A stretch of 53,655 nt of DNA from Acidobacteriota bacterium (GCA_037440125.1 JBBIUU010000009.1:1-53655); one strand, 5' to 3'; shown: positions 3,523 through 39,352, counted from the first letter of the stretch. The notes: generated by a model not told the origin, from the sequence alone. Made by a program: numbers and translations.

Positions 3523-4614
3523 CTACGAGATGGCTGCGACGAGCGCGTCGGCGGGATCGGCGCCCTGCGGCAATTCGCGGAGGAAGAGCGCGTCGGGGGC
3601 GGGCTCCACGATAAGCGCGCTCGCTCCCTGGCGCTGGAGCACGACGGTGCGGGCACCGCCCTTCTCGCGCACCGTGAGTCCGGCGGCCTCCTGCACGAAC
3701 CCCAGCTGGCGAAGGCGCAACGCGGCGCCCGCCGCGGCCCAGCCCGAGGGCCCCTTTGCGGCGAGACCCTTCGCGGCGAGGCTGTCCAGCGCACCCGTGA
3801 GCGCATGCTCGTCCTGCCTCATCCGGTCCCACTCGCCCGTCCACACGGGGTGCGCGAGCCACGAGGTGTCGGGTTCAGCGAGCGACTGGCCGAGGGCCGA
3901 GAAGGGCATGGGGCCCCTGGCGCGGAGGAGCGCCGAGAGTGTCACGGCTTCGGAGGGGGAGAGCTTCAGGTCCACCGGCTCGCCCGGCGGGAGTCCCGGC
4001 GCCCCGGTGGCGGCCACCGCGCGGAGCGCGCCGTAGAGGGTCCAGTGCGCCGCGGTGACGATGCAGGCCGAAAGGACGAGGAACCAGATCGTCCAGTAGG
4101 TCACGAACCCCCAGGGCATGAGCCTGAAGAAGCCGCAGAGGGTGAAGGCGAAGAGCCAGAACCCGAGGTAGCGACCCTTGTTGCGGTAGATGAGGCCGCC
4201 GAAGCGGTCGCGCCCCACGGGGATGTTCCGCCCCACCATCACGCCGAGGACGGCGCCGAGGACCACGCCCGCGAAGAGGAATCCCACGCGGAGGAAGAGG
4301 AAGATGATGTCCGCGGCGTTGAGGAGGCCCCGGAGGTCCGTGATCTTTTGGGCGCCGAAGATGACGCGGAAGAAGGACAGCGCGAAGAGGATCGTCGTGA
4401 CGAAGAGGACCACCGTGGGCAGGAGGAGGACGGCCCGCAGGACGGGCCGCTTCCCCTGGCGGAAGACCGCGATGCGGCGGTTGATCTCGGCGAGGGTCGC
4501 GTAGAGCGCCGTGCTGTAGCAGAGCTTCACGAAGAGCATGACGACCCACACGACCGCCTTGTAGACGAAGAGGAGGGCGGCGCCGGCGGTCAGGGGGGGC
4601 ACGCTAAGCGCCAT
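3523..4614 (-). CDS. Polytopic membrane protein (about 6 hydrophobic segments) with a soluble C-terminal domain; unknown function; last gene of the operon
   Basis: 363-aa ORF with GGGAGGG upstream. Its start overlaps the preceding gene end by 11 nt. Amino-acid composition is normal. Hydrophobic helices in the first ~210 aa are followed by LSPSEAVTLSALLRARGPMPFSAL... No recognisable catalytic motif. Confidence 0.75.
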   Translation of the reverse strand: MALSVPPLTAGAALLFVYKAVVWVVMLFVKLCYSTALYATLAEINRRIAVFRQGKRPVLRAVLLLPTVVLFVTTILFALSFFRVIFGAQKITDLRGLLNAADIIFLFLRVGFLFAGVVLGAVLGVMVGRNIPVGRDRFGGLIYRNKGRYLGFWLFAFTLCGFFRLMPWGFVTYWTIWFLVLSACIVTAAHWTLYGALRAVAATGAPGLPPGEPVDLKLSPSEAVTLSALLRARGPMPFSALGQSLAEPDTSWLAHPVWTGEWDRMRQDEHALTGALDSLAAKGLAAKGPSGWAAAGAALRLRQLGFVQEAAGLTVREKGGARTVVLQRQGASALIVEPAPDALFLRELPQGADPADALVAAIS

Positions 4615-5026
4615 GGGACCCTCCCGCCATCCTGCTCGCCACCCAGGCGCGCGCCTCCTCTTCGGCGAGGGGGAAGCGCAGCCTCAGCGCCTCGGGCGAG
4701 CGCCGGCACTCCACCGCGCTGCCCTCCCTGAAGGCGAGGTGGACCACCTCCGCGCCGCCGCGGCCGAAGAGGGAGAGCGTCCAGACGCGCTCGGGCGAGG
4801 CGAGCCAGCGCAGCGCCGCGGCCACGAAGGGGTTCACGCGGCGGTCCGCCAGGAGGACCCCTCTCGCGGCGAGCTCGGAGAGGAGCTGGCCCTCGGCGGA
4901 GCTGCCCGCGGGCACGTCGCCCGCCCCCGCCACCGGGTCGCGCAGGGGCGAATCCGGCGAAGGCTCGAGGCCGAGGGTCTGGAGGAGCCAGCGGGCCTGG
5001 GTGGGGTTGAGGGTCGCCTCGATCAT
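4604..5026 (-). CDS. Hypothetical 140-aa soluble protein
   Basis: Internal ATG of track ORF 4604..5560. It forms an ATGA overlap with the stop of the upstream gene (5023-5026). Reads MIEATLNPTQARWLLQTLGLEP... The upstream part of the track ORF is Arg/Gly-rich junk overlapping a better ORF. Confidence 0.65.
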   Translation of the reverse strand: MIEATLNPTQARWLLQTLGLEPSPDSPLRDPVAGAGDVPAGSSAEGQLLSELAARGVLLADRRVNPFVAAALRWLASPERVWTLSLFGRGGAEVVHLAFREGSAVECRRSPEALRLRFPLAEEEARAWVASRMAGGSHGA

Positions 5027-5602: not shown

Positions 5603-6934
5603 TCAGGCCTCGGGCGGGTTGTAGCACAGGGTCGTGTTGCTCACCCGGACGCGGTCCCCCGGCTGGAGCACGGTGGGGCCGTCGATCTTCTCCTCGTTCA
5701 CGAACGTGCCGTTGCTGCTCCCCATGTCGGCCACGCGCCACACGCCCGTGCTCTCCCGCGTGAACTTCACGTGGTGCCTGGAGACGCCCGGGTCGTTGAC
5801 GACGATGGCGTTGTCCCCCTGGCGGCCCAGCGAGAGGCCGTCCACGAGGGGGAAGGTCTGTCCGGCGAGGGCGCCCGTCTCCACGACGAGGCGCTGGATG
5901 ACCGCCGTGGGGCCGTCGAGCATGACCGTCGCCTCGGTACCCACCTCGGGGCCTGCTGCGGCCTTGGGCAGCTCGGGCGGAGGCCCGAAGACGATCTTGA
6001 GGAGCTCGTCCAGATCTCCCGCGAGCAGGGTCGAGAGGGCCGCGTCGCCGCCGCTCATGGACAGGAGGAAGAGGTCGAACACGGATCGGGCGAGGAGGAG
6101 CACGTCGTGCCCGTAGCCGCCCCGCACGGGTGCCGTGACGGAGAGAGCGGCTCGCGCGCTCGCGTTCCGGAACCCCGCCTCGAGGAAGGTCCCCGCGGGG
6201 GTCAGCTCGCAGACGACGCGGTTCGCGGCCGTGCCCACGCGCTCGAGGAGGCCCGCCTTCTCCAGCGCCAGGAGCGCCGGGCGCGGGTCCTTCGCGACGG
6301 CGAGCTCGCCCACGGCGAGCGGCAGGAGCTTGGCGACGAAAGGCAGCGTCCAGCGGAAGTCCTCGACGGCGGCCTCGCCCAGACGCGCCTGGACGTCCTC
6401 CGGGGCGAAGAGCGCCACGGGCTCCTTGTGGTCGAGCAGAGAGATGAGGCGGGCGCGACGGAGCTGGTCGAGGACCGCGAGGAGGGCGAGGACCTCGGGC
6501 GTCGAGAGCTTGACGGAGATACGGTCGGGCCTGAGGGCGTCGTCCGCGGCGAGGGCGTTGGCCACGAGGAAGCGCAGCTCCGGTTCGGAGCGGAGGCTGA
6601 CGCGCCGAAGGTCCCCCGAGCGCGCCAGCGAGACCCACGCACCGCCCATGTCGGGGTGCCACGCGAGGAGGCAGCGGCTCACGTGCTCGTCCGCCACGAC
6701 GCTGTGGAACTGCACCACCTTGCGGGGGTCGGCCAGCGCCCGCAGGAAGCGTTCCGCGAGGGCCTTGAAGGTCGGATCGAGGGCCTGGAAGGCCTTGACG
6801 GCGGCCTCCGCCTCGGGGCCCGCGGGGAGCTTGTCGGGGAGCGAGCCGAGGCCCTGGGCGTGGACGCCGAAGCCGGCGGCCACCGCGGCCATCTCCTTCT
6901 CGTTCAGGATCCACTCACCTTGTTCGACCTGCAT
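5603..6934 (-). CDS. FHA domain protein with a ~340-aa N-terminal domain of unknown function
   Basis: 443-aa ORF. The C-terminal segment LGRQGDNAIVVNDPGVSRHHVKF...VADMGSSNGTFVNEEKI...GDRVRV matches the FHA signature (GR..., SR.H, S.NGT.vN). GAGGTGAGG lies upstream of the ATG. Confidence 0.85.
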   Translation of the reverse strand: MQVEQGEWILNEKEMAAVAAGFGVHAQGLGSLPDKLPAGPEAEAAVKAFQALDPTFKALAERFLRALADPRKVVQFHSVVADEHVSRCLLAWHPDMGGAWVSLARSGDLRRVSLRSEPELRFLVANALAADDALRPDRISVKLSTPEVLALLAVLDQLRRARLISLLDHKEPVALFAPEDVQARLGEAAVEDFRWTLPFVAKLLPLAVGELAVAKDPRPALLALEKAGLLERVGTAANRVVCELTPAGTFLEAGFRNASARAALSVTAPVRGGYGHDVLLLARSVFDLFLLSMSGGDAALSTLLAGDLDELLKIVFGPPPELPKAAAGPEVGTEATVMLDGPTAVIQRLVVETGALAGQTFPLVDGLSLGRQGDNAIVVNDPGVSRHHVKFTRESTGVWRVADMGSSNGTFVNEEKIDGPTVLQPGDRVRVSNTTLCYNPPEA

Positions 6935-6953: not shown

Positions 6954-9900
6954 CTACTCCGGTTCGGGCGTGACGGGCTCGTGGGTGCTCGCGTAGTTGT
7001 TCACACTACCCCGGCCCTGGGCGCAGAACTTGGAGGGGTCGGGGTTTCCGTGGGCGTCCACGTAGCCGTACTTCTTCAGCACGTCGTTCATCTTGCTCGG
7101 GTCGCTGTAGATCTCGTTGGCGGCCTGGGTCAGCCGCTGATCCCCGAGGGACTCGTTCACCGTGTTGGCGATCTTCTCGCTGCGGGTCACCGCCTTGGAG
7201 ATGTAGAGCGGGTCGTTGGGGTGGCCCTCCACGCCCTTGACCTGCTGCCCCATGACCTCGGCCACCTCCTTGGGAGGTATGGCGGTGGGGTCGCGGCCCG
7301 AGATGTCCGCGCCCTGGTAGTTGGCTTTGTTGAGCTCGTTCTGATCCACCACGCTCTGGCCCGAGACCCTGTTCGACCCCGAGACGTAGCCGTCGCCGTC
7401 GGTGCGATACCTCGTGCCCTCACCCTGGCTCGCCTGGCGGGAGGACGTGAAGCCGGAGGCGTAGGAGTCGCCCTTGCCCGAGCACGCGCCGATGCGGTCG
7501 TAAGAGCCGTAACCCACGTTCTTGGCGGCGTCCGCGGGGTTGGAGCCTCCGCTGTTGCCGAAGCCGCGGTTCTGGAGCTCGGCGGAGACGTTGCCCTCGT
7601 GGGAGGCCCGAAACTTCTGGCAGAGCTCGTCGTAGGCCTGCTCGCGGGTCATGCCCCGGTCCGCCGCGTAGTTCTTGAGGTCGCCCTCGTTGAACGTGGG
7701 GATGAGCGTGCGGTCCGCGTCGGTCCCGGCGCGAGCCGTCGGCCCCCGGGACATGGGGCCCCGAGCCGAGGAGCCGCTGTCGGCGACGATGACCTCGTCC
7801 ACGCGGACGCCCGTCTCCGACGGGAACCGGTTGACGGTGCTCACGGTGCCGTCGTGCACGGCGCCGTTGACCTGGGCCTGCAGGAGGGTGTTCAGCTTCT
7901 TGGCCTCGTCGCCCGAGATGTAGCCCTTCATCTGCATGTCGCTGAGGTTCTTGCCGCCGCCGTCCCGGTAGATCCCCGCGAGGACGTCGGGGTCTCCCGT
8001 GGCGATGGCCCGGCGGGCCTGCTGTTGGGCCGCCCACTCGGGCGTGCCGATGAGGGGGCTCTTCATGGCCGAGCCCGCTCCCTCGGTGGCGCCCTGGGTC
8101 AGGCCCTTCGGCAGCACGAGCCCCTCCTGTCCCGTGAGGATGTCCCCCGTGCGCTGCAGCCCGCTCTTGACGGAGCCCCCGAGCTCGCCGACGGTCTTCT
8201 TCCACGCGGCCGGGTCGAAGGCGTCGGTCACGCCCTTCACGCCGCCCGTGACGGTGGACTTGAGCCCGTTCCAGCCGCCCTTCGCGGCGCCTTTGAGGAT
8301 GTTCTCGCCGGCCATCTCGGCCTGGGCCATGCCCTTGATGGCCGACCCGCCCGTCTTGAGCGCCCCGCCGATGAGGGCCCCGCCGATCTCTTGCTTGATG
8401 GTCTCCTTGACCCCTTCCCACGTGGCCTCGAGGCCGTTGGCGCCCTTGTCGATGGCGTCCTTGGTCTTGTACATGGCGCCCGTGGGCGTGAAGATCCACT
8501 CGGACTGCCCCGCGGTCAGCATGCCGATGCCGACCCGCCCAAGGAGGCCGGGCCAAGACATCTTCCCGTCGCTCGTCTGGCACGTGGAGATGTTGCGCCC
8601 CGTCTCGTTCAGCGCCTGTTTCATGGAGTCGCCGTCGGTGTACCAGGGCTTCTCGGGAGGCGGGAGCTGGTCGGATGTGGTCCCGTCGATCCGGTGGCCG
8701 ATGGCGTCCCGAATCTGCTTGATCATGGCGGGGTCCAGCTTCTCGCCGTTGAGGAACTTGTTGATCTGGTCGCCCACGCGGCCGTACATGTCGCCCTTCG
8801 TGCCGTGGGCGTCCGGGTCCACCATGCCGCGATCCCAGGCCTCCTTCTGGAGCTTCTGGAGGTAATCGAGCTCGGCCTTGCTCTGGCGCATCTTGTCGCC
8901 CGCCTCGAGGAACTCCTTGCCGGGAGAGATGGTGCCCCGGTCGCGGGCGGTGTAGTCGAAGTCGCTCCCCTCCTTCTGGAGCTGGCCGTGGAGCTCGCCG
9001 AGGCGCCCGTTGAGCTGGTTGAGGCGCGTCTGCTGGTCGGTGGTGTCGAGGCCCGCCTGCTGGGCGCCCCGCATGACGGCCTCGAGGTGGGCCTTCTCCT
9101 CGGCTGCCGCCTTGAGGTCCTCCTGGCGGTCTTTGATCCACTGGTCCTTGTAGGCCTTGGCTTCGTTGGCGGCGGCCTCATCGGCCTCCCGCTTCGACTG
9201 CATGGCGTCGGCCTGGGCCTCCGCCGAGGAGGCCTCGTCCTCCTTGGACTTGATGTAGTCGTCGTACTGCTGCTTGAGGTTCTTGTAGCCGGGGTCGGAC
9301 TTGTCCGCCGAGGACTCCGAATCCTCCCACTGCTTCTTGTACTGGTCCGCCTCCGCGCGAGCCTTCTGCGCCGCCTCGCGGGCGGCCCTCTCATCGGGGG
9401 TCTCGCCGGAGGGGCCCGGACCGCCGGGTCCCGGTCCCGGCCCGCCGGGGGTCTGGCCGTTGGAGGGGAGGGGCGGCGGGTCGCCGGGTCCCGCGGGCGG
9501 CGGGGGCGTGGCGGCCGCCACGACGCCGATGGGCCCGACGGCTCCGGCATCGCCGACGCCGCCGAGCATGTTCTGGTCGAGGTACCCGACGTCCATCTTG
9601 AAGCAACCGACGTCCGCCGTATGGCTCGGGTGGAGGGCCACCCGGATGGGGTTGTACTCGGCCCACATGTGGCCGTGCATGACCCCTGCGCCCACGGCGG
9701 AACCCATGATGCCTCCCGCCGCGGCGGCCGCGAGGGCGCCGAAGCCCTGTCCCATGAAGGGGCCCACGTCCGCCGGTCCGAGGCCCGAGGGCAGCAGGCC
9801 CTGGCTGCGCGCCTGCCAGTCGCGGATGAGCTGGTCCCGCCAGCGCTGACGCTCCGCCTGGGCGGCGTACATGGCCCGGTCGTAGTCGAGGATCACGTCG

Positions 9901-11678
9901 CGCATGGGGTCGCGCCTCGGGCGGTGGCGCCCGCCGCCCGTTCCTTCGGACTGCGGTGCGGCCTGAGGCGCTTCGGCCACCGGCCCCGGGGCCTGCTGGG
10001 GGCCGGCGTGCCCGAGGTTCGGATTGGCGGGGCCGACGGGCGGTGAGATAGGAACGCCCAGCGCGGATTGGAGCTGGGAGACCTTACCGTTGGAGGACCC
10101 GAGCGCCGACCGCGCGGCGTTGAGACGGTCCGCCGCCGCGTTGCGCTGCTGGGCCGCGGCCTGGAACTCACGTTGCGCCTGAGCGCGCGCCTGGCGGGCC
10201 TGCTCGAGGCGGGCGGCCTCTTCCCGGGCTTTCTCTTGAGACGCGGCCGCGTTCCGCCGCGCCTCCTCGGCCTCGGCCTCCTTGGCGCGGATCTGCTCCT
10301 GGGCTTGCTCCTGTTTCCTCCGGGCCGCTTCGGCTTTCGCCTCCGCGTCCCGGTAAATTTTGAGGGTCTCTTCGTTCTTCTTGGACTGCTCCTCGGCCTC
10401 GCGCTCGAGCTTCGCGTGCTCCGCCTTAGCCTTCGCCAGGTCTTCGCGGGCGAAGTCACGTTTCGCTTCCTCGAGCCGGCGCGCCGAGTCGTTCTGAGCC
10501 AGGGCCTTCTTCGCGGCTTCGATGCGCTCGGGGGTGAGAGGCTTCCCGTCGGCGTCCACGCCCGTGTCGAGCGCGCGCTGGATCTCCTCGCGGTCCCTCT
10601 CAAGCTTGGCGGAGACCTTCTCCGAGGCCTTGATGTCCGACTGGAGCGTTTCCTCCTGCTTCTGGACGGAGGCTGCCTGATCCTTGAGCTGTTCCTCCCG
10701 ATAGCTGCCCTGCCGGAGGTCCGCATCGGCCCGATCGCGGAACCCGTCGAACTTGGCCGCCTCTTTCCCGGCCCGGTCCGCGTCCTCGGCGGTCCGGGCC
10801 ACTTGCTCGCCGATGGTGGCGGCTTGCCGGTTGTACTTCTCGGTGTCGGCGTTGGCGCTCTGGACGCCGGCCGCCGCGCCCCGCTCGTCGCCTTGCGCCA
10901 TCTGGACGTCCGCCGCCTTCTCGGCCACGGCTTGGTCGGCCTGCTCGAAGCGCCCCGAGGCGTTCCGCTCGTTCTGGGCCGCGCCCTGCTGCTCCGAGAG
11001 CGCCTGGCTCAGCTGGCGCTTCAGTGCCTCCTTGTTGGGCGGGCCGCCGTCGTGCATGACCTTCGCCCGCCCCGCTTGGAAGATCCGGGAGGCGATGCCG
11101 TAGGCGATGCGCGAGCCGAGGCCCGGCAGGAGGGCGTAGAGCGGCAGCGTGATGAAGTCCATGCGGGCGTAGGCGCCCCAGGTGAGGAGCGGGTGCGACT
11201 TGTTGAAGAGGTGGAACAGGTTCAGGTTCGAATCCTGGGGGAAGAGCCAGTAAGTGGCCGTGGTGAGGACGTCCCCCACCGCGAAGGCCAGGGTCATGAG
11301 GAGGGCCAGGATGGGGGAGAAGCACGAGGCCATGGGGAGGATCTGCGCTACGTAATTCGCCTCACCCAGGTGGTTCCATCGCTCGATCTTGGCCCCCGCC
11401 AGGAACATGAGGAGCAGCAGCGAAAGGAAGGAGAACCAGAAGAGGCCTCCCCCCAGCTTCTTCTTCATCCCCATGAGGAACCCGATCCCCGTGAGGTCGA
11501 GGAAGAGGGAGGCGAGGCAGCCCGGTCCCTTGGAGGGTGGCGCCTGCCGTGGCGAGGGGCGTTGCGCCTGCCGCTGGGGCACCTGGGCGCGGGCCTGCGC
11601 GGGGACCGCGGGGCGCTGCTGCGCGGGCTTGGCGGCGGGGCGGCCCGGGGGGCGCCCCTTGGGCGGCTGGGCGCTCAC
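6954..11678 (-). CDS. Giant (1,574 aa from the GTG) membrane-anchored coiled-coil protein; unknown function
   Basis: Track ORF 6954..12017. The start is placed at GTG 11676-11678, which forms a GTGA overlap with the upstream stop. An alternative ATG is at 11474. High GC3 and normal composition. Contains a Pro/Gln/Arg-rich N-terminus, four hydrophobic helices, long Ala/Glu/Lys/Arg/Gln heptad-like regions, Pro/Gly linkers, a Gly/Lys-rich region and a ~360-aa C-terminal region. Confidence 0.85.
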   Translation of the reverse strand: MSAQPPKGRPPGRPAAKPAQQRPAVPAQARAQVPQRQAQRPSPRQAPPSKGPGCLASLFLDLTGIGFLMGMKKKLGGGLFWFSFLSLLLLMFLAGAKIERWNHLGEANYVAQILPMASCFSPILALLMTLAFAVGDVLTTATYWLFPQDSNLNLFHLFNKSHPLLTWGAYARMDFITLPLYALLPGLGSRIAYGIASRIFQAGRAKVMHDGGPPNKEALKRQLSQALSEQQGAAQNERNASGRFEQADQAVAEKAADVQMAQGDERGAAAGVQSANADTEKYNRQAATIGEQVARTAEDADRAGKEAAKFDGFRDRADADLRQGSYREEQLKDQAASVQKQEETLQSDIKASEKVSAKLERDREEIQRALDTGVDADGKPLTPERIEAAKKALAQNDSARRLEEAKRDFAREDLAKAKAEHAKLEREAEEQSKKNEETLKIYRDAEAKAEAARRKQEQAQEQIRAKEAEAEEARRNAAASQEKAREEAARLEQARQARAQAQREFQAAAQQRNAAADRLNAARSALGSSNGKVSQLQSALGVPISPPVGPANPNLGHAGPQQAPGPVAEAPQAAPQSEGTGGGRHRPRRDPMRDVILDYDRAMYAAQAERQRWRDQLIRDWQARSQGLLPSGLGPADVGPFMGQGFGALAAAAAGGIMGSAVGAGVMHGHMWAEYNPIRVALHPSHTADVGCFKMDVGYLDQNMLGGVGDAGAVGPIGVVAAATPPPPAGPGDPPPLPSNGQTPGGPGPGPGGPGPSGETPDERAAREAAQKARAEADQYKKQWEDSESSADKSDPGYKNLKQQYDDYIKSKEDEASSAEAQADAMQSKREADEAAANEAKAYKDQWIKDRQEDLKAAAEEKAHLEAVMRGAQQAGLDTTDQQTRLNQLNGRLGELHGQLQKEGSDFDYTARDRGTISPGKEFLEAGDKMRQSKAELDYLQKLQKEAWDRGMVDPDAHGTKGDMYGRVGDQINKFLNGEKLDPAMIKQIRDAIGHRIDGTTSDQLPPPEKPWYTDGDSMKQALNETGRNISTCQTSDGKMSWPGLLGRVGIGMLTAGQSEWIFTPTGAMYKTKDAIDKGANGLEATWEGVKETIKQEIGGALIGGALKTGGSAIKGMAQAEMAGENILKGAAKGGWNGLKSTVTGGVKGVTDAFDPAAWKKTVGELGGSVKSGLQRTGDILTGQEGLVLPKGLTQGATEGAGSAMKSPLIGTPEWAAQQQARRAIATGDPDVLAGIYRDGGGKNLSDMQMKGYISGDEAKKLNTLLQAQVNGAVHDGTVSTVNRFPSETGVRVDEVIVADSGSSARGPMSRGPTARAGTDADRTLIPTFNEGDLKNYAADRGMTREQAYDELCQKFRASHEGNVSAELQNRGFGNSGGSNPADAAKNVGYGSYDRIGACSGKGDSYASGFTSSRQASQGEGTRYRTDGDGYVSGSNRVSGQSVVDQNELNKANYQGADISGRDPTAIPPKEVAEVMGQQVKGVEGHPNDPLYISKAVTRSEKIANTVNESLGDQRLTQAANEIYSDPSKMNDVLKKYGYVDAHGNPDPSKFCAQGRGSVNNYASTHEPVTPEPE

Positions 11679-13189
11679 GGGGCCTCCCACATCACCCACA
11701 GGCGGGCGTGGTCCCACGGCTGGGTGGAACCGCCGCGTTCGCTCGGCACGGCCTGGACGAACGCGAGGGCGCTGCCCGCGGCGGTGACGGCGAAGATGTC
11801 TTCGGTCGCGGCGGCGGGTGTGGCGGTGCCGCTCCGGAAGAGCCTGCGGGCCGCCTCCCGCGCCGGCTGGCCGCTCGCCCAGGCAGTCCCGGCGGGGCTG
11901 ACGGAGAGCGCCGCGAGGTTGGCGCGCACGGTGACCAGGTCGGAGGTCCATCGGCCCGGGCCCTCGAAGCGCACGAGGCGGGAGAAGCCGCCTGCCTCCG
12001 CCATCCAGGCCCAGCACGCCCCATCCGGGAGCGCCTGGAACCCCGAGACGGCAATCCCCTCAGGGGACCAGCGCGTTTCGGCCGTCCCGTCGAAGGAGAA
12101 GAGGCCCGGCGAGCCGTGGGGCGCCTGCGCCAGGTAGAAGACGCCGCTTTCCGAGGGCTGGGCCTTGAACCTGCGAAGGGGCCGCGGACCGAGCGGTGTC
12201 AGCGCGACCGCGCGGCCGCCGAGGGCGCATTCCACGGGGACCTCGGCGGGGAGGACCCTGACGTTCTCGCTGTCCCGTTCCATCCGGGCATAGTCGAATC
12301 CCCGGGTGAAGAGCGGTGCATCCCATTCCTCCGACCAGCCGCAGAGCCTGGGGAACTGGCCGTCGGCCAACGGCTCGAGCGCCCAGGCCCTGGTCCCACG
12401 GTGCAGCTCCCAGAGGCCGATGCCCGAGCCTTCCACGAACGCGACGCGGCTCCCGTCGCGAGAGAAGCAGGGTGCGAGGATCTCGTTTCCGGACGAAGCC
12501 AGGAATGAGACCTCTCGGCCTCCTGCGTCGAATAGGGCGAGCCCCGCGGGCCGGGCGCCCGATGCGGGGAGGGGAAGGGTAAAGCGTTTACCGTCGGGTG
12601 ACCACGCCGCCATGGACGCCTGGACGTCGAGCGCGTAAGGCGTGAGTCGCCTGGGCGCGGCCCATCCGCGGCGCAGGAGGAAGGCGGCCAGGCCGTCGCG
12701 GAGGTCCGTGACGCCGTCGCCGTCGGTGTCCGGTCCGCGCCGGGCGAAGAGGATCGACGAGCCGTCCGGCGAGAGGCACGGCGAGAGGTCGCAGGCGAAC
12801 CCCTTGGCCACCCTCTCGGCGCCGGGGAGCGCGGTCGGCTCGCCGGGGGACGTGCCCGGGGATGCGGCGAGCAACGCCAGGCCGAGGCATGCAGCCCCGG
12901 GAAGCACCCTCCTGACTCCCACGAGGAGGACGAGCGCCGCCAGGGCGAGCCCGCCGCCCCCCGCAGCGCCGATGAGCCAGAGGCCGGTGTCCGCGCCCTC
13001 GTGCCGCCTCAGGAACTCCATGTTCCCGCTGTGGCAGGCGATGCACGGCTGGGAGGGCAGCGTAGCGACGTCGGCGCCGTGGCAGGAGAGGCAGGCGCCC
13101 GACCCGAGCTCCGGCCGGGGTGTCGCGACGGCGGCCGTGCCCATCAGCAGGACCGCCGACGCGAGGAGGAGCGCGCGGCCGGCCCTCAC
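11675..13189 (-). CDS. Di-haem cytochrome c motif protein fused to a TolB-like (PD40/WD40-like) beta-propeller region
   Basis: GTG start at 13187-13189 forms a GTGA overlap with the upstream stop. Signal-like RAGRALLLASAVLLMGTAAVA. Two CxxCH motifs (CLSCH, CIACH). Two hydrophobic segments. Repeated SPDGSSILFA, SPDGKRFTL and SRDGSRVAFVE motifs are typical of PD40 repeats. Confidence 0.8.
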   Translation of the reverse strand: MRAGRALLLASAVLLMGTAAVATPRPELGSGACLSCHGADVATLPSQPCIACHSGNMEFLRRHEGADTGLWLIGAAGGGGLALAALVLLVGVRRVLPGAACLGLALLAASPGTSPGEPTALPGAERVAKGFACDLSPCLSPDGSSILFARRGPDTDGDGVTDLRDGLAAFLLRRGWAAPRRLTPYALDVQASMAAWSPDGKRFTLPLPASGARPAGLALFDAGGREVSFLASSGNEILAPCFSRDGSRVAFVEGSGIGLWELHRGTRAWALEPLADGQFPRLCGWSEEWDAPLFTRGFDYARMERDSENVRVLPAEVPVECALGGRAVALTPLGPRPLRRFKAQPSESGVFYLAQAPHGSPGLFSFDGTAETRWSPEGIAVSGFQALPDGACWAWMAEAGGFSRLVRFEGPGRWTSDLVTVRANLAALSVSPAGTAWASGQPAREAARRLFRSGTATPAAATEDIFAVTAAGSALAFVQAVPSERGGSTQPWDHARLWVMWEAP

Positions 13190-13734
13190 GGGGAACCCTC
13201 CAACGCGCGCTCCCACAGGGCTTGGCACGAGGGGCAGAGGGAGGCGGGACGGTCTTCCACGCCCATGGGGTGGGGGCGCTCGCTGAGGGCGCAGTCCCAC
13301 CGGTCGCAGTGCTCGAGACCGAACGCGTGGGCGAGCTCGTGGCGAAGGACGCCCTGGGCACCCTCGATGTCGAGCCCGTGGCAGGAAGCGAGTGCAAGAC
13401 CCGTCCCCGCGCGGGAGATTCCGCGGATGGGGATTCCGTGTCCGTCCGTGAGGGGGCGGTGCGTCACGCCCAGGAGCGGGCGCGCCGGTTGCCGGGCCTC
13501 GAGGTAGTCCAGCAGGAGCAGCGCGTCGGAAGAGCCCACGGACCAGGGTTCCACGGAGAGCATGTCGACGGGTAGCGGCTGGAAGGTTCGAGAGAGGGGC
13601 AGGCCCGGAGGCAGGAACCCATCGGCGAGGACGCCGACGTTGATGGCGCTCCGGAAAGCGGATGCCCCCTTCTGTGCCAATGCCCCCTCCCCGAGGTGCA
13701 CCTCAACCTTAGGGGACGCGGATTCAGGTGTCAA
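13186..13734 (-). CDS. Archaemetzincin-like zinc metalloprotease (peptidase M54-like)
   Basis: HELAHAFGLEHCDRWDC...(16)...CPSC closely follows the archaemetzincin signature HExxHxxGx3Cx4C...CxxC. The track start is TTG at 13734, 16 nt after the pilin stop. An in-frame GTG 33 nt downstream is an alternative start. Confidence 0.75.
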   Translation of the reverse strand: MTPESASPKVEVHLGEGALAQKGASAFRSAINVGVLADGFLPPGLPLSRTFQPLPVDMLSVEPWSVGSSDALLLLDYLEARQPARPLLGVTHRPLTDGHGIPIRGISRAGTGLALASCHGLDIEGAQGVLRHELAHAFGLEHCDRWDCALSERPHPMGVEDRPASLCPSCQALWERALEGSP

Positions 13735-13750
13735 GCATCGTGACCGGGAG

Positions 13751-14248
13751 TCAGTTGCAGCGTCTCTGCTTGCCTTCGGGGCGCACCATGAAGAAGTCGT
13801 TCACCCAGACGATGTCGTTCTCCAGGCACACCGTCGAATGGGGCGTGTCGGCCAGGATGCCGGGGAAGTCGAGCGAATCGGCGGCGTTGCCCTTGCCCAG
13901 CGAGCGGACCGCGAAGTCCTGCTGATTGTCGGCCACGGCGTACTGGTACGGCAGGCCCCAGGGATCCGGGTTCGGGACCGCCTTGATGTAGTACGGGGCG
14001 AGGTCCTGCATGCCCGCGATCGCGTCGGTCCCCGTGTAGGTCGTGCTCGACGCCGGGAACTGGTTCAGGTCCGCGAAGCTGGAGTTGCACGCCATGGCCA
14101 TCCCTCGGACCTCGCCCATGGCTCGCTTCTGTTTGGCGCGCTGGATGGCGGTCAGGAGGTTCGGTATGGCGATGGCCGCGATGATGCCGATGATGGCGAC
14201 GACGATGAGGAGTTCGATGAGGGTAAAGCCCCGCTCCCTGGATCCCAT
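13751..14248 (-). CDS. Prepilin-type N-terminal cleavage/methylation domain protein (type IV pilin or pseudopilin-like)
   Basis: MGSRERG/FTLIELLIVVAIIGIIAAIAIPNLL is a canonical class III signal peptide plus hydrophobic helix. GGAGGG lies upstream of the ATG. Two C-terminal Cys residues are present. Confidence 0.9.
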   Translation of the reverse strand: MGSRERGFTLIELLIVVAIIGIIAAIAIPNLLTAIQRAKQKRAMGEVRGMAMACNSSFADLNQFPASSTTYTGTDAIAGMQDLAPYYIKAVPNPDPWGLPYQYAVADNQQDFAVRSLGKGNAADSLDFPGILADTPHSTVCLENDIVWVNDFFMVRPEGKQRRCN

Positions 14249-14396: not shown

Positions 14397-15515
14397 TCAG
14401 GGGCTGCGGAGGGTGAACTTCCGGATTTCGGAGGGTCTGAAGAGCCTCATGGGTGGCCCCCAGGTGCCCGTACCCCGGCAGACCCAGAGCGTCATGGCCC
14501 CGAGGGTGTAGGGCCCCTCGAGCCTGGGGTAGGCGAAGGCGACGAGGTAGCCGAAGGGCCAGATCTGGCCTCCGTGCGTGTGCCCCGAGAGCATGAGGCC
14601 GGTCCCGAGCGCGGCGGCCTTCTCCCCCTGGAGGGGCGAGTGGCACAGGAACACGGTGGCACCCGCCGGCCTTCCGTTCAGGGCTCGCGCCACGGGGTCC
14701 CCGTCGAGGTTGAACTGGCGTCGCGCCGAGAGGTCGTCCACGCCCGCCATCACGAGCCCCGGCGCCACCTCCTGGGCGCGGTCGCGGAGGACCGTGAACC
14801 CGGCTCTCTCCATGAGGGCCACACACCGCTCCACGCCGGCGTAGAACTCGTGGTTGCCCGTCACGGCCCAGACGCCGCGGGGCGCCTTCAGGGTCTGGAG
14901 CGTGGGTAGGAGGCGCTCCACTTCAGCCGCGTCGCCGTCCACCAGGTCCCCCGTCACCGCCACGAGGTCGGGCTTCAGCGCCTCGACCTGGGCGATGCGC
15001 GCCTCGAGCCAGCGGCGTCCGAGGAGGCTTCCGAGGTGGAGGTCGGAGATCTGGACGAGGACCGTGCCGTCGAGCTCTTTGGGCAGGCCGACCAGCTTCA
15101 CGTCCGCCTCGCGCACCACGGGAGCGCGGAGCCCTTGGACGAGCGCGACGACGGCGAAGAGGGCCGCCGCGCCGAGCGCCGCGAGCCGCACGGTGGGCGC
15201 CGCCTTCTGGAGGAGCCAGCCGAAGCCGGTGACCACGTCGGCGATGAAGAGGCACGCGAGGGCGAGGAAGAGGACGCCCATCCACGACGCGCCGACGGCC
15301 TCGAGGAGCTTTCCCATGCGGGGGAGCCCCTGGTGCGCCACGATCCGGCCCAGCGGGTAGAGGACCCACAGGAGCACGAAGGCGCCCACGAGGACGCGCC
15401 GCCATAGCGCGGGCGGCGCGAGCGGCCAGAGGCGCCAGAGCACGTAGGCGTGCATGCCCGTCCAGACGGTGAGGACGACGGTGAGGAAGAGGACGAATCG
15501 CCAGGCGGACGCCAT
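14397..15515 (-). CDS. Membrane-anchored metallophosphoesterase (calcineurin-like, YkuE-type)
   Basis: Internal ATG (MASAWRFVLFL...) with GAGGAG upstream. Several N-terminal TM helices are followed by the motifs VQISDLHLG, VTGDLVDG, GNHEFY and SGHTHGGQ. Confidence 0.85.
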   Translation of the reverse strand: MASAWRFVLFLTVVLTVWTGMHAYVLWRLWPLAPPALWRRVLVGAFVLLWVLYPLGRIVAHQGLPRMGKLLEAVGASWMGVLFLALACLFIADVVTGFGWLLQKAAPTVRLAALGAAALFAVVALVQGLRAPVVREADVKLVGLPKELDGTVLVQISDLHLGSLLGRRWLEARIAQVEALKPDLVAVTGDLVDGDAAEVERLLPTLQTLKAPRGVWAVTGNHEFYAGVERCVALMERAGFTVLRDRAQEVAPGLVMAGVDDLSARRQFNLDGDPVARALNGRPAGATVFLCHSPLQGEKAAALGTGLMLSGHTHGGQIWPFGYLVAFAYPRLEGPYTLGAMTLWVCRGTGTWGPPMRLFRPSEIRKFTLRSP

Positions 15516-15615
15516 GGGGCTCCTCGGAGGCGCGGTCTTGGGACCGCGCAAGGTGGCATAGTATATCGAGATTGCGGTCGCACCTCCCGGGGTGGGGCGC
15601 AGGAGGAGGTATCTC

Positions 15616-16083
15616 ATGGAAGACTGGACCGGTGCCCCGTTGAGCCAGCCCCCCGACCGCATCCTTCCCAGCGTCTGCGCCGTGGCGCTCGACGACGGGG
15701 GACGGATCCTCCTCCACCGGCGCGCCGATAACGGCTTCTGGGGTCTGCCCGGAGGCAAAGTGGATCCGGGGGAGTCGGTGTCTGCGGCCGTGGTGAGGGA
15801 GGTCTCCGAGGAGACCGGCCTGCGGGTCTCCGTCGTCCGGCTCACGGGCGTCTACTCGGACCCGGCGGTGCGCGTCGTGGCCGCCTACCCGGACGGGCGC
15901 GTGATCCACTACGTGAACCTCACGTTCCTGTGCCGCGTCGAGGGGGGCGAGCCGGCCGTGTCCGGCGAGGGCCTGGAGGTGGGGTTCTTCGAGCCCGACC
16001 GCCTGCCCGAGCCCTTCCTCCTCGGACACCGGATCCGCCTCGGGGACGCCCGGTCCCTCGGGGTCGAGCCCTTCGTGAGGTAA
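15616..16083 (+). CDS. NUDIX hydrolase
   Basis: AGGAGGAGG lies 6 nt upstream of the ATG at 15616. Nudix box GLPGGKVDPGESVSAAVVREVSEETGL. Confidence 0.85.
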   Translation: MEDWTGAPLSQPPDRILPSVCAVALDDGGRILLHRRADNGFWGLPGGKVDPGESVSAAVVREVSEETGLRVSVVRLTGVYSDPAVRVVAAYPDGRVIHYVNLTFLCRVEGGEPAVSGEGLEVGFFEPDRLPEPFLLGHRIRLGDARSLGVEPFVR

Positions 16084-36278: not shown

Positions 36279-37199
36279 ATGCGTAAGCTTGCGGTCGTGA
36301 TGGCAGCGGGGATGGCCATCGCCTTCCTGGGGGCTTCGCCGCTCCAGGCGGCCGGCGTTTTCGTGGTGGCTCCCAAGGGGGTGGAGGCCTTCGAGGGTGC
36401 CAAGGCGGGGTTCATCCAGATGGCCTACGGTGTCCAGATGCCGGGCCTCAACCCCAGGACCGTGGACCTCGACGGCTCCGCGGCCGACGACGCGGCGATC
36501 TCGGCGCTGGCCGCCCAGAACCCCGCGGTGGTCTTCGCCGTGGGATCGCAGGCCGTCAAGAAGGTCCGCAAGGCCCTGCCCGACGTCTGGATCGTCTACG
36601 GCATGGTATACTTCCCGGAGTCCGAGGGGTTCCTCAACGACGCGAAGATGGTGGGCGTGGCCTCCCTCGGCCCCACCAAGGGTCTTGCGGCGGCGATCAA
36701 GACCTTCACCAAGTCCAAATCGGTGGTGGTCCTCCACGCTCAGGCCGAATCGGCCACCGTGTCCGCGCTCACGGAGCGCCTCCGGGCCGAGGGCCTGGAC
36801 GCCCAGTCCAAGGGGGTCTCCTCCTCGGCGGATGTGCCCGCGGCCTTCGACGCGGTGAAGGAGTCCTACAAGACGGTCATCCTCCTCCCGGACGGCATCA
36901 CCGCCAACCCCGACTCCATGCGCTTCCTCATCTCCCAGTGCGTCCAGGGCGGTATCCTCCCCGTGGGACTCGCCGAGCCCCTCGTGGCCTCGGGCGCCTT
37001 CCTCGCGGCGTATTACCCCGCCGAGGCCGTGGGGAACCAGGCGGCGCGGCTCGCGGCGGACCTGGCCAAGACCGGCAATACTCCTGCGGACAGGCTCGTC
37101 ACGCCCGCCGAGTCGGCGACGGCGCTGAACAAGAGCACGGCGCAGGCCCTCAAGATCAACATCCCCAAGACCTTCCGAGTCGAGGTCACCTATGAGTAG
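36279..37199 (+). CDS. Periplasmic substrate-binding-like protein (ABC_sub_bind-type fold, tentative)
   Basis: GGGAGGTG upstream. Signal peptide MRKLAVVMAAGMAIAFLGASPLQAA. An alternating beta-alpha pattern runs throughout. The stop overlaps the MCP start (ATGAGTAG). Confidence 0.6.
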   Translation: MRKLAVVMAAGMAIAFLGASPLQAAGVFVVAPKGVEAFEGAKAGFIQMAYGVQMPGLNPRTVDLDGSAADDAAISALAAQNPAVVFAVGSQAVKKVRKALPDVWIVYGMVYFPESEGFLNDAKMVGVASLGPTKGLAAAIKTFTKSKSVVVLHAQAESATVSALTERLRAEGLDAQSKGVSSSADVPAAFDAVKESYKTVILLPDGITANPDSMRFLISQCVQGGILPVGLAEPLVASGAFLAAYYPAEAVGNQAARLAADLAKTGNTPADRLVTPAESATALNKSTAQALKINIPKTFRVEVTYE

Positions 37200-39351: not shown

Positions 39352-39352
39352 C

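What the first reader, a model, noticed from the sequence alone, without database searches (positions are those of the whole stretch)
6954..11678. Modular architecture of the giant protein
Residues are numbered from the GTG start.
- 1-53: Pro/Gln/Arg/Ala-rich and positively charged.
- ~54-200: four hydrophobic helices.
- ~215-540: almost uninterrupted Ala/Glu/Lys/Arg/Gln helical region (e.g. AKAEHAKLEREAEEQSKKNEETLKIYRDAEAKAEAARRKQEQAQEQIRAKEAEAEEARR), reminiscent in composition of TolA domain II.
- 541-590: Pro-rich linker.
- 640-724: Gly/Ala-rich hydrophobic stretches (GFGALAAAAAGGIMGSAVGAGVM, GAVGPIGVVAAA) that could be additional membrane or glycine-zipper segments.
- 724-760: PPPPAGPGDPPPLPSNGQTPGGPGPGPGGPGPSG linker.
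- 761-950: acidic helical region.
- ~1096-1210: Gly/Lys-rich quasi-repeats (GGALIGGALKTGGSAIKG...KGAAKGGWNGLKSTVTGGVKGV).
- ~1211-1574: Ser/Gly/Asn/Asp-rich C-terminal region with no motif I recognise.

The positive N-terminus plus four TM helices predicts a cytoplasmic C-terminal body, unless the Gly/Ala segments also cross the membrane. I could not see any enzymatic signature.
Basis: seen in the sequence. Interest (0 to 1): 0.75.

Follow-up and report, generated by a model that had tools for sequence, protein, structure and literature searches.

The report
Giant membrane protein, new superfamily
The giant ORF is a real, intact 1574-residue membrane protein of an acidobacterium: a lineage-specific membrane anchor and 23-nm coiled-coil hairpin fused to a roughly 800-residue body that I found in hundreds of uncharacterised bacterial proteins, always next to the same partner gene, with function unknown.

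Summary
The ORF (window 6954-11678, minus strand, GTG start) is real and intact, and full-length homologues are conserved end to end.

- The 215-540 helical region is not a TolA-like rod. It is an antiparallel coiled-coil hairpin of 2 x 157 residues with a conserved tip, kept in register by paired 7-residue insertions equidistant from that tip.
- Only two of the "four TM helices" are robustly hydrophobic.
- The Gly/Lys "quasi-repeats" are compositional bias only.
- The C-terminus does carry a catalytic-looking invariant set: S-G, D-x-D-x-T, D, K, R.

**No curated library places the protein.** Pfam, NCBIfam, PHROGs, PADLOC, PDB sequences and Foldseek all fail.

**An exhaustive profile search widens the family.**
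- Residues ~761-1574 form a body shared by at least 238 protein clusters in Firmicutes, Omnitrophota, Acidobacteriota and a gammaproteobacterial MAG.
- These relatives have variable N-terminal sensors or anchors.
- Where the neighbourhood could be read, a conserved partner gene usually lies immediately downstream. It carries FHA, Zn-ribbon, GYF_2 or no extra domain.

**The narrow clade.** The membrane block, hairpin and mid region occur only in a narrow Acidobacteriota clade, inside a strictly conserved 7-gene operon.

**Best reading.** This is a membrane-anchored scaffold or receptor-enzyme of an undescribed superfamily. Function is inferred, not shown.

The parts
6954..11678 (-). Giant gene, 1574 aa, GTG start, stop at 6954-6956
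   Evidence: GC3 0.91. Full-length homologues.
11520..11678 (-). Residues 1-53: Pro/Ala/Gln/Arg-rich basic tail, net +10, poorly conserved, predicted cytoplasmic
11037..11519 (-). Residues 54-214: clade-specific membrane block. Robust TM helices at 78-97 and 110-146; marginal helix at 54-71; weakly hydrophobic helix at 175-200. Invariant R100, H103, E106, R172, D174, R190.
   Evidence: 71% identity; hydropathy and charges; found only in this clade plus one distant fragment, P0014.
10563..11033 (-). Residues 216-372: hairpin arm 1, 157 aa, unbroken heptad register
   Evidence: (pLDDT above 90), (7-residue insertion site after residue 304).
10533..10562 (-). Residues 373-382: hairpin tip, within the conserved motif TGVDxDGRPLTPE (372-384)
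   Evidence: G373 and G378 invariant; P380 invariant.
10062..10532 (-). Residues 383-539: hairpin arm 2, 157 aa, unbroken heptad register
   Evidence: the compensating 7-residue insertion falls after residue 452, 74 residues from the tip centre, the same distance as the arm-1 site.
9909..10058 (-). Residues 541-590: variable Pro/Gly-rich linker (21-67 aa in homologues)
9507..9908 (-). Residues 591-724: clade-specific mid region. It comprises a helix, a Gly/Ala hydrophobic segment (about 641-663), and the motif HGHMWAEYNPIR..HPSH.AD.(G/S)C.KMD.GYLD with conserved His/Cys/Asp.
9399..9506 (-). Residues 725-760: Pro/Gly linker, marking the boundary between the clade-specific half and the superfamily body
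8829..9398 (-). Residues 761-950: acidic helical domain, 190 aa in nine of eleven homologues (189 and 196 in the other two), partly shared with distant relatives
8394..8828 (-). Residues 951-1095: module A (..IRDxIGxRIDG..PWY..ETGRNLS..DGxxSWxGLxGRIGIGxLTGGxSEWVFTP..)
   Evidence: it matches as a separate module in the relatives, and some relatives match through it alone.
8064..8393 (-). Residues 1096-1205: Gly/Ala/Lys-rich low-complexity spacer. Modelled as low-confidence helices; not true repeats.
6957..8063 (-). Residues 1206-1574: module B, a C-terminal alpha/beta domain. Invariant G1241, S1301, G1302, D1320, D1322, D1445, K1495, R1499; near-invariant T1324, D1404, Y1406.
   Evidence: (pLDDT 70-90).
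5603..6934 (-). Partner gene f: conserved ~330-aa N-domain of unknown fold plus a C-terminal FHA domain
   Evidence: The gene lies immediately downstream of a module-B protein.
11675..13300 (-). Operon gene h: signal peptide, two conserved CxxCH motifs, a hydrophobic stretch, and a PD40/TolB-like propeller
13186..13698 (-). Operon gene i: archaemetzincin-like (HExxHxxGxxH) protein of 170 aa
5023..5586 (-). Operon gene e: 187-aa soluble protein of unknown family
4604..5026 (-). Operon gene d: 140-aa half-size EspG-like protein
3523..4614 (-). Operon gene c: 363-aa protein with 4-5 TM helices and a C-terminal soluble domain

Best explanation
**What it is (shown)**
- The gene encodes a composite inner-membrane protein.
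- Its C-terminal half (about 761-1574) comprises a helical domain, module A, a Gly-rich spacer and module B.
- This half is the constant body of a large, previously uncurated superfamily of membrane-anchored proteins with variable N-terminal sensors or anchors.
- In all 10 acidobacterial loci with DNA downstream of the big gene, and in 6 of 9 loci of distant relatives, the next gene downstream is an f-like partner.
- In this narrow Acidobacteriota clade the usual ectodomain is replaced by three parts. These are a highly conserved membrane block, a 2 x 157-residue antiparallel coiled-coil hairpin about 23 nm long, and a Gly/Ala-rich, His/Cys-rich mid region.
- The hairpin brings that mid region back next to the membrane block.

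**How it probably works (inferred)**
- The membrane block and mid region form one membrane-proximal unit.
- The hairpin acts as a rigid, length-controlled stalk. It presents its conserved tip about 23 nm away, most likely in the cytoplasm, much as a chemoreceptor hairpin does.
- The body is the output. It is either an enzyme using an acidic metal site (D-x-D plus D, with S-G, K and R) or a docking platform.
- The f-like partner reads or regulates that output. Its swappable FHA, Zn-ribbon or GYF_2 domain links it to phospho-threonine or proline-rich signals.
- The clade-specific operon products would complete the complex: the metzincin-like protein, the di-haem/PD40 periplasmic protein, the EspG-like protein and the polytopic protein c.
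For: **Gene and family**
- The gene is real and conserved over its full length.
- Pfam, NCBIfam, PADLOC and PHROGs return no significant match, the PDB sequence profiles return only chance-level matches (best E 0.1-0.2), and Foldseek against PDB and BFVD returns nothing meaningful for the body.

**Hairpin**
- AlphaFold2 models helices 216-372 and 383-539 with pLDDT above 90.
- Both arms are 157 aa with a single heptad register.
- The only indels in this region among homologues are 7-residue insertions that come in pairs.
  - One is always placed after residue 304.
  - In three homologues the other falls after residue 452. Both sites are then 74 residues from the tip centre at 378.
  - In the other three it is placed after residue 485.
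- The tip motif is conserved.

**Superfamily**
- The exhaustive profile search found 238 cluster representatives, 109 of them at E <= 1e-30.
- Where both modules match, module B is C-terminal and the N-termini vary: a signal peptide plus one TM, or five TM plus an ectodomain plus one TM.
- The membrane block and mid region occur only in the acidobacterial clade.

**Partner gene**
- In the acidobacterial loci the f-like gene follows the giant gene wherever downstream DNA is present.
- In four Firmicutes loci it is directly downstream, at E 1e-67 to 1e-103.
- In the 5 of the 6 metagenome loci retrieved through f that include upstream DNA, a module-B protein lies directly upstream.
- Its C-terminal domain varies between FHA, Zn-ribbon, GYF_2 and none.

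**Module B and topology**
- Invariant residues across 31 diverse module-B sequences are listed.
- In three distant relatives I read (P0056, P0064, P0072), K/R residues follow the TM helix that precedes the body, which places the body in the cytoplasm.
- In the giant, the N-tail (+8 on average), the H1-H2 loop (+3) and the stretch after H4 (+2.5) are all basic, while the H2-H3 loop is neutral.

**Operon**
- The seven genes are conserved in every locus long enough to show them, while the flanking genes differ in distant loci.
Against: - No function is demonstrated for any part.
- The AlphaFold2 models of the membrane block, the mid region and residues 993-1205 have pLDDT below 50. Residues 766-949 were not modelled at all.
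- Module B matched no known enzyme fold or profile. The catalytic reading therefore rests on conservation pattern alone.
- Topology is not settled.
  - The Gly/Ala segment 638-667 is the third most hydrophobic segment.
  - It resembles the G/A-rich juxtamembrane TM helix of relatives.
  - This would put the hairpin in the periplasm.
- Three distant loci (L011, L012, L013) showed no f-like gene within 10 kb.
- The alignment places the second heptad insertion after residue 485 rather than 452 in three homologues.
Confidence: 0.5

Rival explanations
1. **Periplasm-spanning tether (TolA- or membrane-fusion-protein-like).** The N-terminal block crosses the membrane an odd number of times and the 23-nm hairpin stands in the periplasm. 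Its conserved tip reaches the outer membrane or the TolB-like, di-haem protein h. The Gly/Ala segment 641-663 then returns the chain to the cytoplasm, where the body sits.
For: - Relatives have the layout multi-TM block, ectodomain, G/A-rich TM helix, Pro-rich linker, body.
- The giant's G/A segment is borderline TM-like and conserved.
- The operon encodes a periplasmic PD40/CxxCH protein.
- A hairpin of about 23 nm is close to the width of a periplasm (own knowledge).
- HlyD-type hairpins appear among the Foldseek analogues.
Against: - The stretch just after H4, at the start of arm 1, is K/R-rich (+2.5 on average, 4-5 K/R), as are the N-tail and the H1-H2 loop. This fits an even number of crossings.
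- H1 and H4 are poor TM candidates, and the Hessa-type sum for the G/A segment is positive at +2.6.
- No TolQ/R, ExbB/D or outer-membrane partner is in the operon.
Confidence: 0.2
2. **Structural or cytoskeletal membrane organiser.** The protein would be a TipN-, EzrA- or HubP-like landmark or membrane-shaping scaffold. The hairpin and the Gly-rich amphipathic region provide length and membrane binding, and module B is only a protein-protein interaction domain.
For: - The architecture is N-terminal membrane anchor, long coiled coil and low-complexity linkers.
- No enzyme family was detected.
- The closest FHA matches include FhaB/FipA-type cell-division adaptors.
Against: - Invariant S-G / D-x-D-x-T / D / K / R over sequences only about 30% identical is unusual for a pure interaction domain.
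- There is no homology to any known landmark protein.
- Relatives carry sensor-like ectodomains of BACON/Ig type.
Confidence: 0.15
3. **Core of an unrecognised protein-secretion machine, analogous to the type VII system.** The giant would play an EsaA-like role as a membrane protein with a long antiparallel coiled coil. Gene d would be an EspG-like chaperone and f an FHA adaptor.
For: - There is an EspG Pfam hit above the gathering threshold, plus weak EspG1/EspG3 PDB matches.
- FHA domains occur in T3SS, T6SS and T7SS components (own knowledge).
- The operon encodes two polytopic membrane proteins.
Against: - No FtsK/EccC-type or any other ATPase, no WXG100-like gene and no secretin lie in the operon or the window.
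- The EspG-like gene is absent from the Firmicutes loci that keep the body and f pair.
- The EspG hit covers only half of the profile.
Confidence: 0.07
4. **Mobile-element protein.** The giant would be a phage tape-measure protein, a polymorphic toxin or an anti-phage defence protein.
For: - Length, Gly-rich hydrophobic stretches and a helical character are typical of tape-measure proteins.
- An RHS toxin lies near one relative.
Against: - PHROGs and PADLOC return no hit at E <= 0.1.
- BFVD matches have TM-scores <= 0.13.
- The surrounding genes are housekeeping and syntenic in close relatives.
- In this family the constant region is C-terminal and the variable region is N-terminal, the reverse of polymorphic toxins.
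Confidence: 0.02

Closest known systems
Methyl-accepting chemotaxis proteins (cytoplasmic signalling hairpin)
   Same: - Both are membrane-anchored with a long antiparallel coiled-coil hairpin of about 22 heptads per arm and a conserved tip.
- Length changes occur only as paired heptad insertions placed symmetrically about the tip. This is the hallmark of MCP length classes (Alexander and Zhulin 2007, own knowledge).
- An MCP is the best Foldseek match to the hairpin model (9a69_B, E 2e-4).
   Different: - There is no MCPsignal or HAMP match, and the tip sequence is unrelated.
- The chain does not end after the hairpin but continues for about 1000 residues.
- No CheA or CheW is in the operon.
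SMC / Rad50 / MukB arms
   Same: - In both, an intramolecular antiparallel coiled coil brings the N- and C-terminal flanking regions together at its base.
- This is a useful analogy for how the membrane block and mid region could form a single unit.
   Different: - There are no ABC ATPase head halves. The NCBIfam SMC score is 12 bits against a cut-off of 567.
- There is no hinge or zinc hook.
- The protein is membrane-embedded.
TolA (domain II) with TolB
   Same: - The helical region has Ala/Glu/Lys/Arg/Gln-rich composition.
- A PD40/TolB-like propeller gene is adjacent.
   Different: - It is a hairpin, not an extended rod.
- The anchor is polytopic and has no TolQ/TolR partners.
- There is no TolA/TonB C-terminal domain.
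Type VIIb EsaA / ESX EspG context
   Same: - Both are large membrane proteins with an elongated antiparallel coiled coil.
- An EspG-like gene and an FHA gene are in the operon.
   Different: - There is no EssC/EccC ATPase, no WXG100 protein and no sequence similarity to EsaA.
Pol-beta-type nucleotidyltransferases / HAD phosphatases (motif level only)
   Same: - Module B has a strand followed by G-D-S-G-S-S-A-K-G, then 7-16 residues, then T-D-x-D-R-T-L-I.
- This fits both G[GS]-x9-13-D-x-D (nucleotidyltransferase) and D-x-D-x-T-L (HAD motif I).
- Further invariant D, K and R residues lie downstream.
   Different: - No profile hit to either superfamily and no fold match.
- The predicted secondary-structure order is not Rossmannoid.

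Membership tests
TolA | Single N-terminal TM helix working with TolQ/TolR encoded alongside | tested here: not met
   The anchor is a polytopic block. No TolQ/R or ExbB/D genes are in the conserved operon or the window.
TolA | C-terminal TolA/TonB-type domain III | tested here: not met
   No Pfam or NCBIfam hit even at E <= 10.
FimV/HubP | Periplasmic LysM domain and the FimV C-terminal motif | tested here: not met
   No Pfam or NCBIfam match.
Phage tape-measure protein | Match to tape-measure families and a tail-gene context | tested here: not met
   PHROGs gives no hit. BFVD TM-scores are <= 0.13. The context is housekeeping and syntenic.
VirB6/TrbL | VirB6/TrbL polytopic domain within a type IV secretion gene cluster | tested here: not met
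   No Pfam hit for residues 1-214 at E <= 10. No T4SS genes are present.
Methyl-accepting chemotaxis protein | MCPsignal domain with its conserved tip sequence | tested here: not met
   No MCPsignal or HAMP hit in the giant. The window's genuine MCP at 37192-39351 is detected easily.
Methyl-accepting chemotaxis protein | Antiparallel hairpin with symmetric paired heptad indels | tested here: met
   This shows it works like an MCP hairpin. It does not show membership.
SMC/Rad50 | Walker A/B ATPase head halves flanking the coiled coil | tested here: not met
   NCBIfam SMC_prok_B scores 12.2 bits against a cut-off of 567, over coiled-coil residues only.
Type VII secretion system | EccC/EssC FtsK-type ATPase and a WXG100 substrate encoded nearby | tested here: not met
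   None found in the operon or the window. Only a half-size EspG-like protein is present.
Pol-beta nucleotidyltransferase superfamily | hG[GS]-x9-13-Dh[DE]h motif | tested here: met
   S1301-G1302-S1303 is followed after 11 residues (16 in the window protein) by D1320-A-D1322. S1301, G1302, D1320 and D1322 are invariant in 31 diverse sequences.
Pol-beta nucleotidyltransferase superfamily | Nucleotidyltransferase alpha/beta fold or a profile match | tested here: inconclusive
   There is no Pfam or PDB profile hit, and no Foldseek hit below E 0.8. However, the model was built from only 11 sequences and the motif loop has pLDDT below 50.
HAD phosphatases | Rossmannoid fold with DxDxT at the end of a hydrophobic first strand | tested here: not met
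   The DxDxT motif is present. It is preceded by a polar loop, the predicted topology is not Rossmannoid, and there is no fold or profile hit.
New superfamily (body plus f-like partner), defined here | C-terminal module A, Gly-rich spacer and module B with the invariant S-G / D-x-D / D / K / R set | tested here: met
New superfamily (body plus f-like partner), defined here | f-like gene immediately downstream | tested here: met
   The window's f gene is at 5603-6934, 19 nt after the giant's stop. The same arrangement holds.

The most novel reading that the evidence does not exclude
Module B is a new metal-dependent nucleotidyl- or phosphoryl-transferase. The superfamily would then be an unrecognised class of membrane receptor-enzymes. 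Variable ectodomains, or here the membrane block and hairpin, would control a cytoplasmic catalytic body. The f-like partner would be its dedicated regulator or substrate adaptor, plugged into phospho-Thr (FHA), Pro-rich (GYF_2) or Zn-ribbon-mediated signalling. That would amount to a new bacterial transmembrane signalling route found in several phyla.
Probability: 0.15. Interest if true: 0.85.

Novelty: categorically new. Interest (0 to 1): 0.62.

Why it matters
- **Uncharted sequence space.** About 800 conserved residues recur in at least 238 protein clusters across Firmicutes, Omnitrophota, Acidobacteriota and a gammaproteobacterial MAG. A strongly conserved partner gene usually accompanies them, and neither has any curated family, solved structure or name.
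- **Possible function.** Module B has an invariant acidic and basic residue set, and the N-termini of relatives look like sensors. Together these suggest an undescribed transmembrane signalling or enzymatic system.
- **A natural experiment.** The acidobacterial version shows a "molecular ruler" hairpin maintained by compensating heptad insertions, as in chemoreceptors but in an unrelated protein.
- **Testable organisms.** Cultured carriers exist, for example Natranaerofaba carboxydovora (WP_241080622.1), so the hypothesis can be tested directly.
- **If only structural.** It would then be one more lineage-specific scaffold, and of modest interest.

Tried and rejected
**Libraries and fold searches that gave nothing**
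- Pfam, NCBIfam, PADLOC and PHROGs on the whole protein and on four pieces.
- Profile searches of PDB sequences with the narrow C-terminal alignment (A2) and with a 31-sequence diverse module-B alignment (A10). Only chance-level hits appeared.
- Foldseek of the C-terminal model against PDB and BFVD. Nothing below E 0.8 in PDB, and BFVD matches had TM <= 0.13.
- Foldseek of the N-terminal model. Only generic antiparallel coiled coils matched.
- Pfam on twelve distant relatives. Only BACON/Ig-like ectodomains in one of them.
- Two literature searches found nothing relevant. A third, on GYF_2/FHA/Zn-ribbon associations, also found nothing relevant.

**Searches limited by method**
- The word-indexed homologue search with the whole protein found only 12 relatives. 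The exhaustive search later showed this was an underestimate of the body's distribution.
- The word-indexed search with the membrane block found only a fragment and one distant partial protein, P0014.
- Protein c has no relatives outside the clade.
- The eight-sequence f alignment was too diverse for a metagenome scan. A four-sequence version worked.

**Ideas considered and dropped**
- An SGNH/GDSL hydrolase reading of "GDSGS". The putative block-V His (VDAHGNP) is not conserved: it is Ala or Arg in two homologues and absent in another.
- An S1 protease reading of "GDSG". No conserved His is present, and the predicted fold is alpha/beta rather than a double barrel.
- An ADP-ribosyltransferase R-S-E triad. 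There is no invariant Glu.
- The Gly/Lys quasi-repeats. They are no better than shuffled sequence.
- Homology of d to the C-domain of c or the N-domain of f. hhalign gave E 0.014 and 0.2, which is a hint only.


Full report
**1. The gene is real**

- The ORF lies on the minus strand at window 6954-11678 and starts with GTG. A longer upstream extension to 12017 is not conserved.
- GC3 is 0.91 in a window of about 70% GC, the same as the other real genes.
- The GTG overlaps the stop codon of the upstream gene as GTGA. Homologous loci show the same 4-nt overlap.
- A word-indexed search of 5.8 billion proteins returned 11 homologues of 1470-1589 aa. They align end to end at 38-65% identity, and only P0012 is frameshifted.
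- A genome scan places the family in MAGs of Acidobacteriota, one of them labelled Thermoanaerobaculia.

**2.

Composition, conservation and length variation were computed per segment.

- The basic Pro-rich N-tail, both Pro-rich linkers, the Gly/Ala region, the acidic helical region and the Gly-rich region are all present as described.
- Correction 1: the hydrophobic helices.
  - Averaged over the family, only H2 (78-97; KD 2.39; Hessa-type sum -1.4) and H3 (110-146; KD 2.09; +0.9) are clear TM helices.
  - H1 (54-71) is marginal (KD 1.57; +4.2) and H4 (175-200) is not TM-like (KD 1.24; +7.0).
  - The Gly/Ala segment 638-667 is intermediate (KD 1.74; +2.6).
- Correction 2: the Gly/Lys "quasi-repeats" at 1096-1210 are no better than shuffled sequence.
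- Correction 3: the C-terminal region is a conserved alpha/beta domain with invariant residues.

**3. The 215-540 region is a length-controlled hairpin**

- AlphaFold2, run with 11 sequences, gives two helices at 216-372 and 383-539 with pLDDT above 90. A short turn joins them.
- Each arm is exactly 157 residues, keeps one heptad register throughout, and shows a sharp 3.5-residue hydrophobic periodicity.
- Among homologues the region is either 326 or 340 residues long.
- Within the helices the only indels are 7-residue insertions, and they always come in pairs.
  - One is after residue 304 and the other after residue 452. Both sites are 74 residues from the tip centre at 378.
  - In three sequences the alignment places the second insertion after residue 485 instead.
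- The turn motif TGVDxDGRPLTPE is conserved.
- Compensating heptad insertions placed symmetrically about a conserved tip are what chemoreceptor hairpins show (own knowledge: Alexander and Zhulin 2007).
- Foldseek's best analogues are MCPs, Rad50, MukB, Smc and HlyD hairpins, which are generic coiled-coil matches.
- At about 0.15 nm per residue, each arm is about 23 nm long.

**4. No known family fits**

- Pfam, NCBIfam, PADLOC and PHROGs give nothing for the whole protein or for its pieces. The SMC score is 12 bits against a cut-off of 567.
- PDB sequence profiles return only chance-level matches.
- The C-terminal AlphaFold2 model has pLDDT 70-90 over residues 1206-1567 and below 50 over 993-1205.
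- That model has no Foldseek match below E 0.8 in PDB, and only TM <= 0.13 matches in BFVD.
- TolA, FimV/HubP, tape-measure, VirB6, MCP, SMC and T7SS membership each fail at least one defining feature (see the membership table).

**5. The C-terminal half is a widespread module**

- An exhaustive HMM search of 1.84 billion cluster representatives, using residues 950-1574, found 238 proteins at E <= 1e-3. Of these, 109 scored E <= 1e-30.
- The hits are mostly 900-2100-aa proteins. Each matches through one or both of two separable units.
  - Module A corresponds to giant residues ~951-1120.
  - Module B corresponds to ~1206-1570 and sits at the C-terminus.
  - A Gly-rich spacer lies between them.
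- Part of the acidic helical domain (761-950) is also shared.
- The N-termini vary: a signal peptide, ectodomain and one TM helix, or five TM helices, an ectodomain and one TM helix. One relative carries BACON/Ig-like domains.
- In P0056, P0064 and P0072 the TM helix before the body is followed by K/R, so the body is cytoplasmic.
- Named sources include the following, all annotated "hypothetical protein":
  - Clostridiales and Eubacteriales MAGs;
  - Natranaerofaba carboxydovora (WP_241080622.1);
  - Ca. Syntrophonatronum;
  - Omnitrophota;
  - a gammaproteobacterial MAG.
- The membrane block, hairpin and mid region (588-726) occur only in five 50%-identity clusters of the acidobacterial clade.
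- The membrane block otherwise matches only one distant partial protein.

**6. Module B looks catalytic but is unassigned**

- Across 31 sequences averaging 30% column identity, the invariant positions are G1241, S1301, G1302, D1320, D1322, D1445, K1495 and R1499.
- T1324, D1404 and Y1406 are conserved in at least 90% of the sequences.
- The local pattern is a strand, then G-D-S-G-S-S-A-K-G, then about 11 residues, then T-D-x-D-R-T-L-I.
- This fits both the G[GS]...DxD signature of Pol-beta nucleotidyltransferases and HAD motif I.
- Neither fold nor profile support was obtained. I treat this as a lead only.

**7. A conserved partner gene**

- The gene after the giant, f (window 5603-6934), has a ~330-aa N-domain of unknown fold and a C-terminal FHA domain.
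- The same N-domain is encoded immediately downstream of the body-containing gene in two further sets of loci.
  - In four Firmicutes loci it scores E 1e-67 to 1e-103 and is 32-46% identical to the window protein.
  - In the five metagenome loci retrieved through f that had upstream DNA, a module-B protein lies directly upstream.
- Its C-terminal appendage is interchangeable: FHA, Zn-ribbon, GYF_2 or none.
- Three distant loci lacked a detectable f within 10 kb.

**8. The clade-specific operon**

- Seven genes are conserved in order in every acidobacterial locus long enough to show them, while the flanks differ in distant loci.
- In order, the genes are:
  - i, archaemetzincin-like with HExxHxxGxxH;
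  - h, with a signal peptide, two conserved CxxCH motifs and a PD40 propeller;
  - the giant;
  - f;
  - e, of unknown family;
  - d, half-size EspG-like (28.6 bits against a gathering threshold of 27);
  - c, with 4-5 TM helices and a soluble domain.
- Supporting calls for these assignments are 13, 20, 21, 23, 38, 59 and 67.
- Genes overlap or lie at most 19 nt apart.
- The window and operon contain no ATPase of a secretion or Tol type.

**9. Topology**

- The N-tail (+8 on average), the H1-H2 loop (+3) and the stretch after H4 (+2.5) are all basic. The H2-H3 loop is neutral.
- The simplest model has the N-terminus inside, H2 crossing outwards and H3 crossing inwards. H1 and H4 would be peripheral, and everything from about residue 150 onwards would be cytoplasmic.
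- This agrees with the cytoplasmic body of the relatives. I give it about 60%.
- The alternative is a periplasmic hairpin that returns through the G/A segment. This copies the relatives' layout of block, ectodomain, G/A-rich TM helix, Pro linker and body. I give it about 20-35%.

**10. Interpretation**

- Shown:
  - the gene is intact;
  - the domain map holds, with the corrections above;
  - the hairpin is real and its length is under constraint;
  - the superfamily and its partner gene exist;
  - the 7-gene operon is conserved.
- Inferred: the membrane block and mid region form one membrane-proximal unit joined by the hairpin. The hairpin works as a stalk or ruler with a binding tip. The body is the output, either an enzyme or a platform, and the f-like partner controls it.
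- Function remains unknown. The most novel reading still open is a new family of membrane receptor-enzymes.

Noticed in passing
window 13186-13698 (-): A 170-aa archaemetzincin-like protein opens the conserved operon. It has an intact HELAHAFGLEHC zinc motif and Cys pairs, and no signal peptide. Its match to Pfam M54 is only partial (23.8 bits against a gathering threshold of 24.4).
   Followed up: partly
window 11675-13300 (-): Protein h has a signal peptide, two strictly conserved CxxCH haem-binding motifs (G.CLSCH...PC[IL][AS]CH.GNMDF), a hydrophobic stretch and a PD40/TolB-like propeller. This is an unusual di-haem and propeller combination. The annotated ORF start overlaps gene i by about 115 nt and is probably too long.
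   Followed up: partly
window 4604-5026 (-) and 3523-4614 (-): Protein d is a 140-aa half-size EspG-like protein. The C-terminal domain of membrane protein c aligns weakly to it (hhalign E 0.014), and so does the N-terminus of an f-like protein (E 0.012). This hints at a shared small fold across three operon products.
   Followed up: partly
window 5603-6934 (-); L010, L014, L015, L016: The f-like partner swaps its C-terminal domain between FHA, Zn-ribbon, GYF_2 and nothing. Its N-domain stays 32-46% identical between Acidobacteriota and Firmicutes. In Natranaerofaba the neighbourhood holds five GYF_2 proteins and an RHS toxin.
   Followed up: partly
giant residues 664-700 (window about 9579-9689, -): A conserved cluster of metal-ligand-type residues, HGHMWAEYNPIR..HPSH.AD.(G/S)C.KMD, lies right after the Gly/Ala hydrophobic segment. 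It may be a metal site and has no match in any library.
   Followed up: no
P0014 (276-aa partial protein, unclassified bacterial MAG): This is the only distant relative of the membrane block (41% identity). It is followed by a Pro-rich region rather than a coiled coil, so the block may exist with other architectures.
   Followed up: no
window 13751-14248 (-) and 14397-15845 (-): A type II secretion G-type pseudopilin and a membrane metallophosphoesterase lie just upstream of the operon. They are syntenic only in close relatives, so they are probably not part of the system.
   Followed up: partly
window 36279-40539 (+): A substrate-binding protein, an MCP (HAMP plus MCPsignal), CheW and a 219-aa protein of unknown family lie together. 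The rest of the window is housekeeping: enolase, pyrD/pyrF, Lon, an ABC exporter and an amidase.
   Followed up: no
L011 (Omnitrophota, GCA_015231405.1): A module-B relative with BACON/Ig ectodomains sits between two enormous genes. One exceeds 5000 aa and has AAA/VWA domains. The other exceeds 6000 aa and has WD40 propellers.
   Followed up: no
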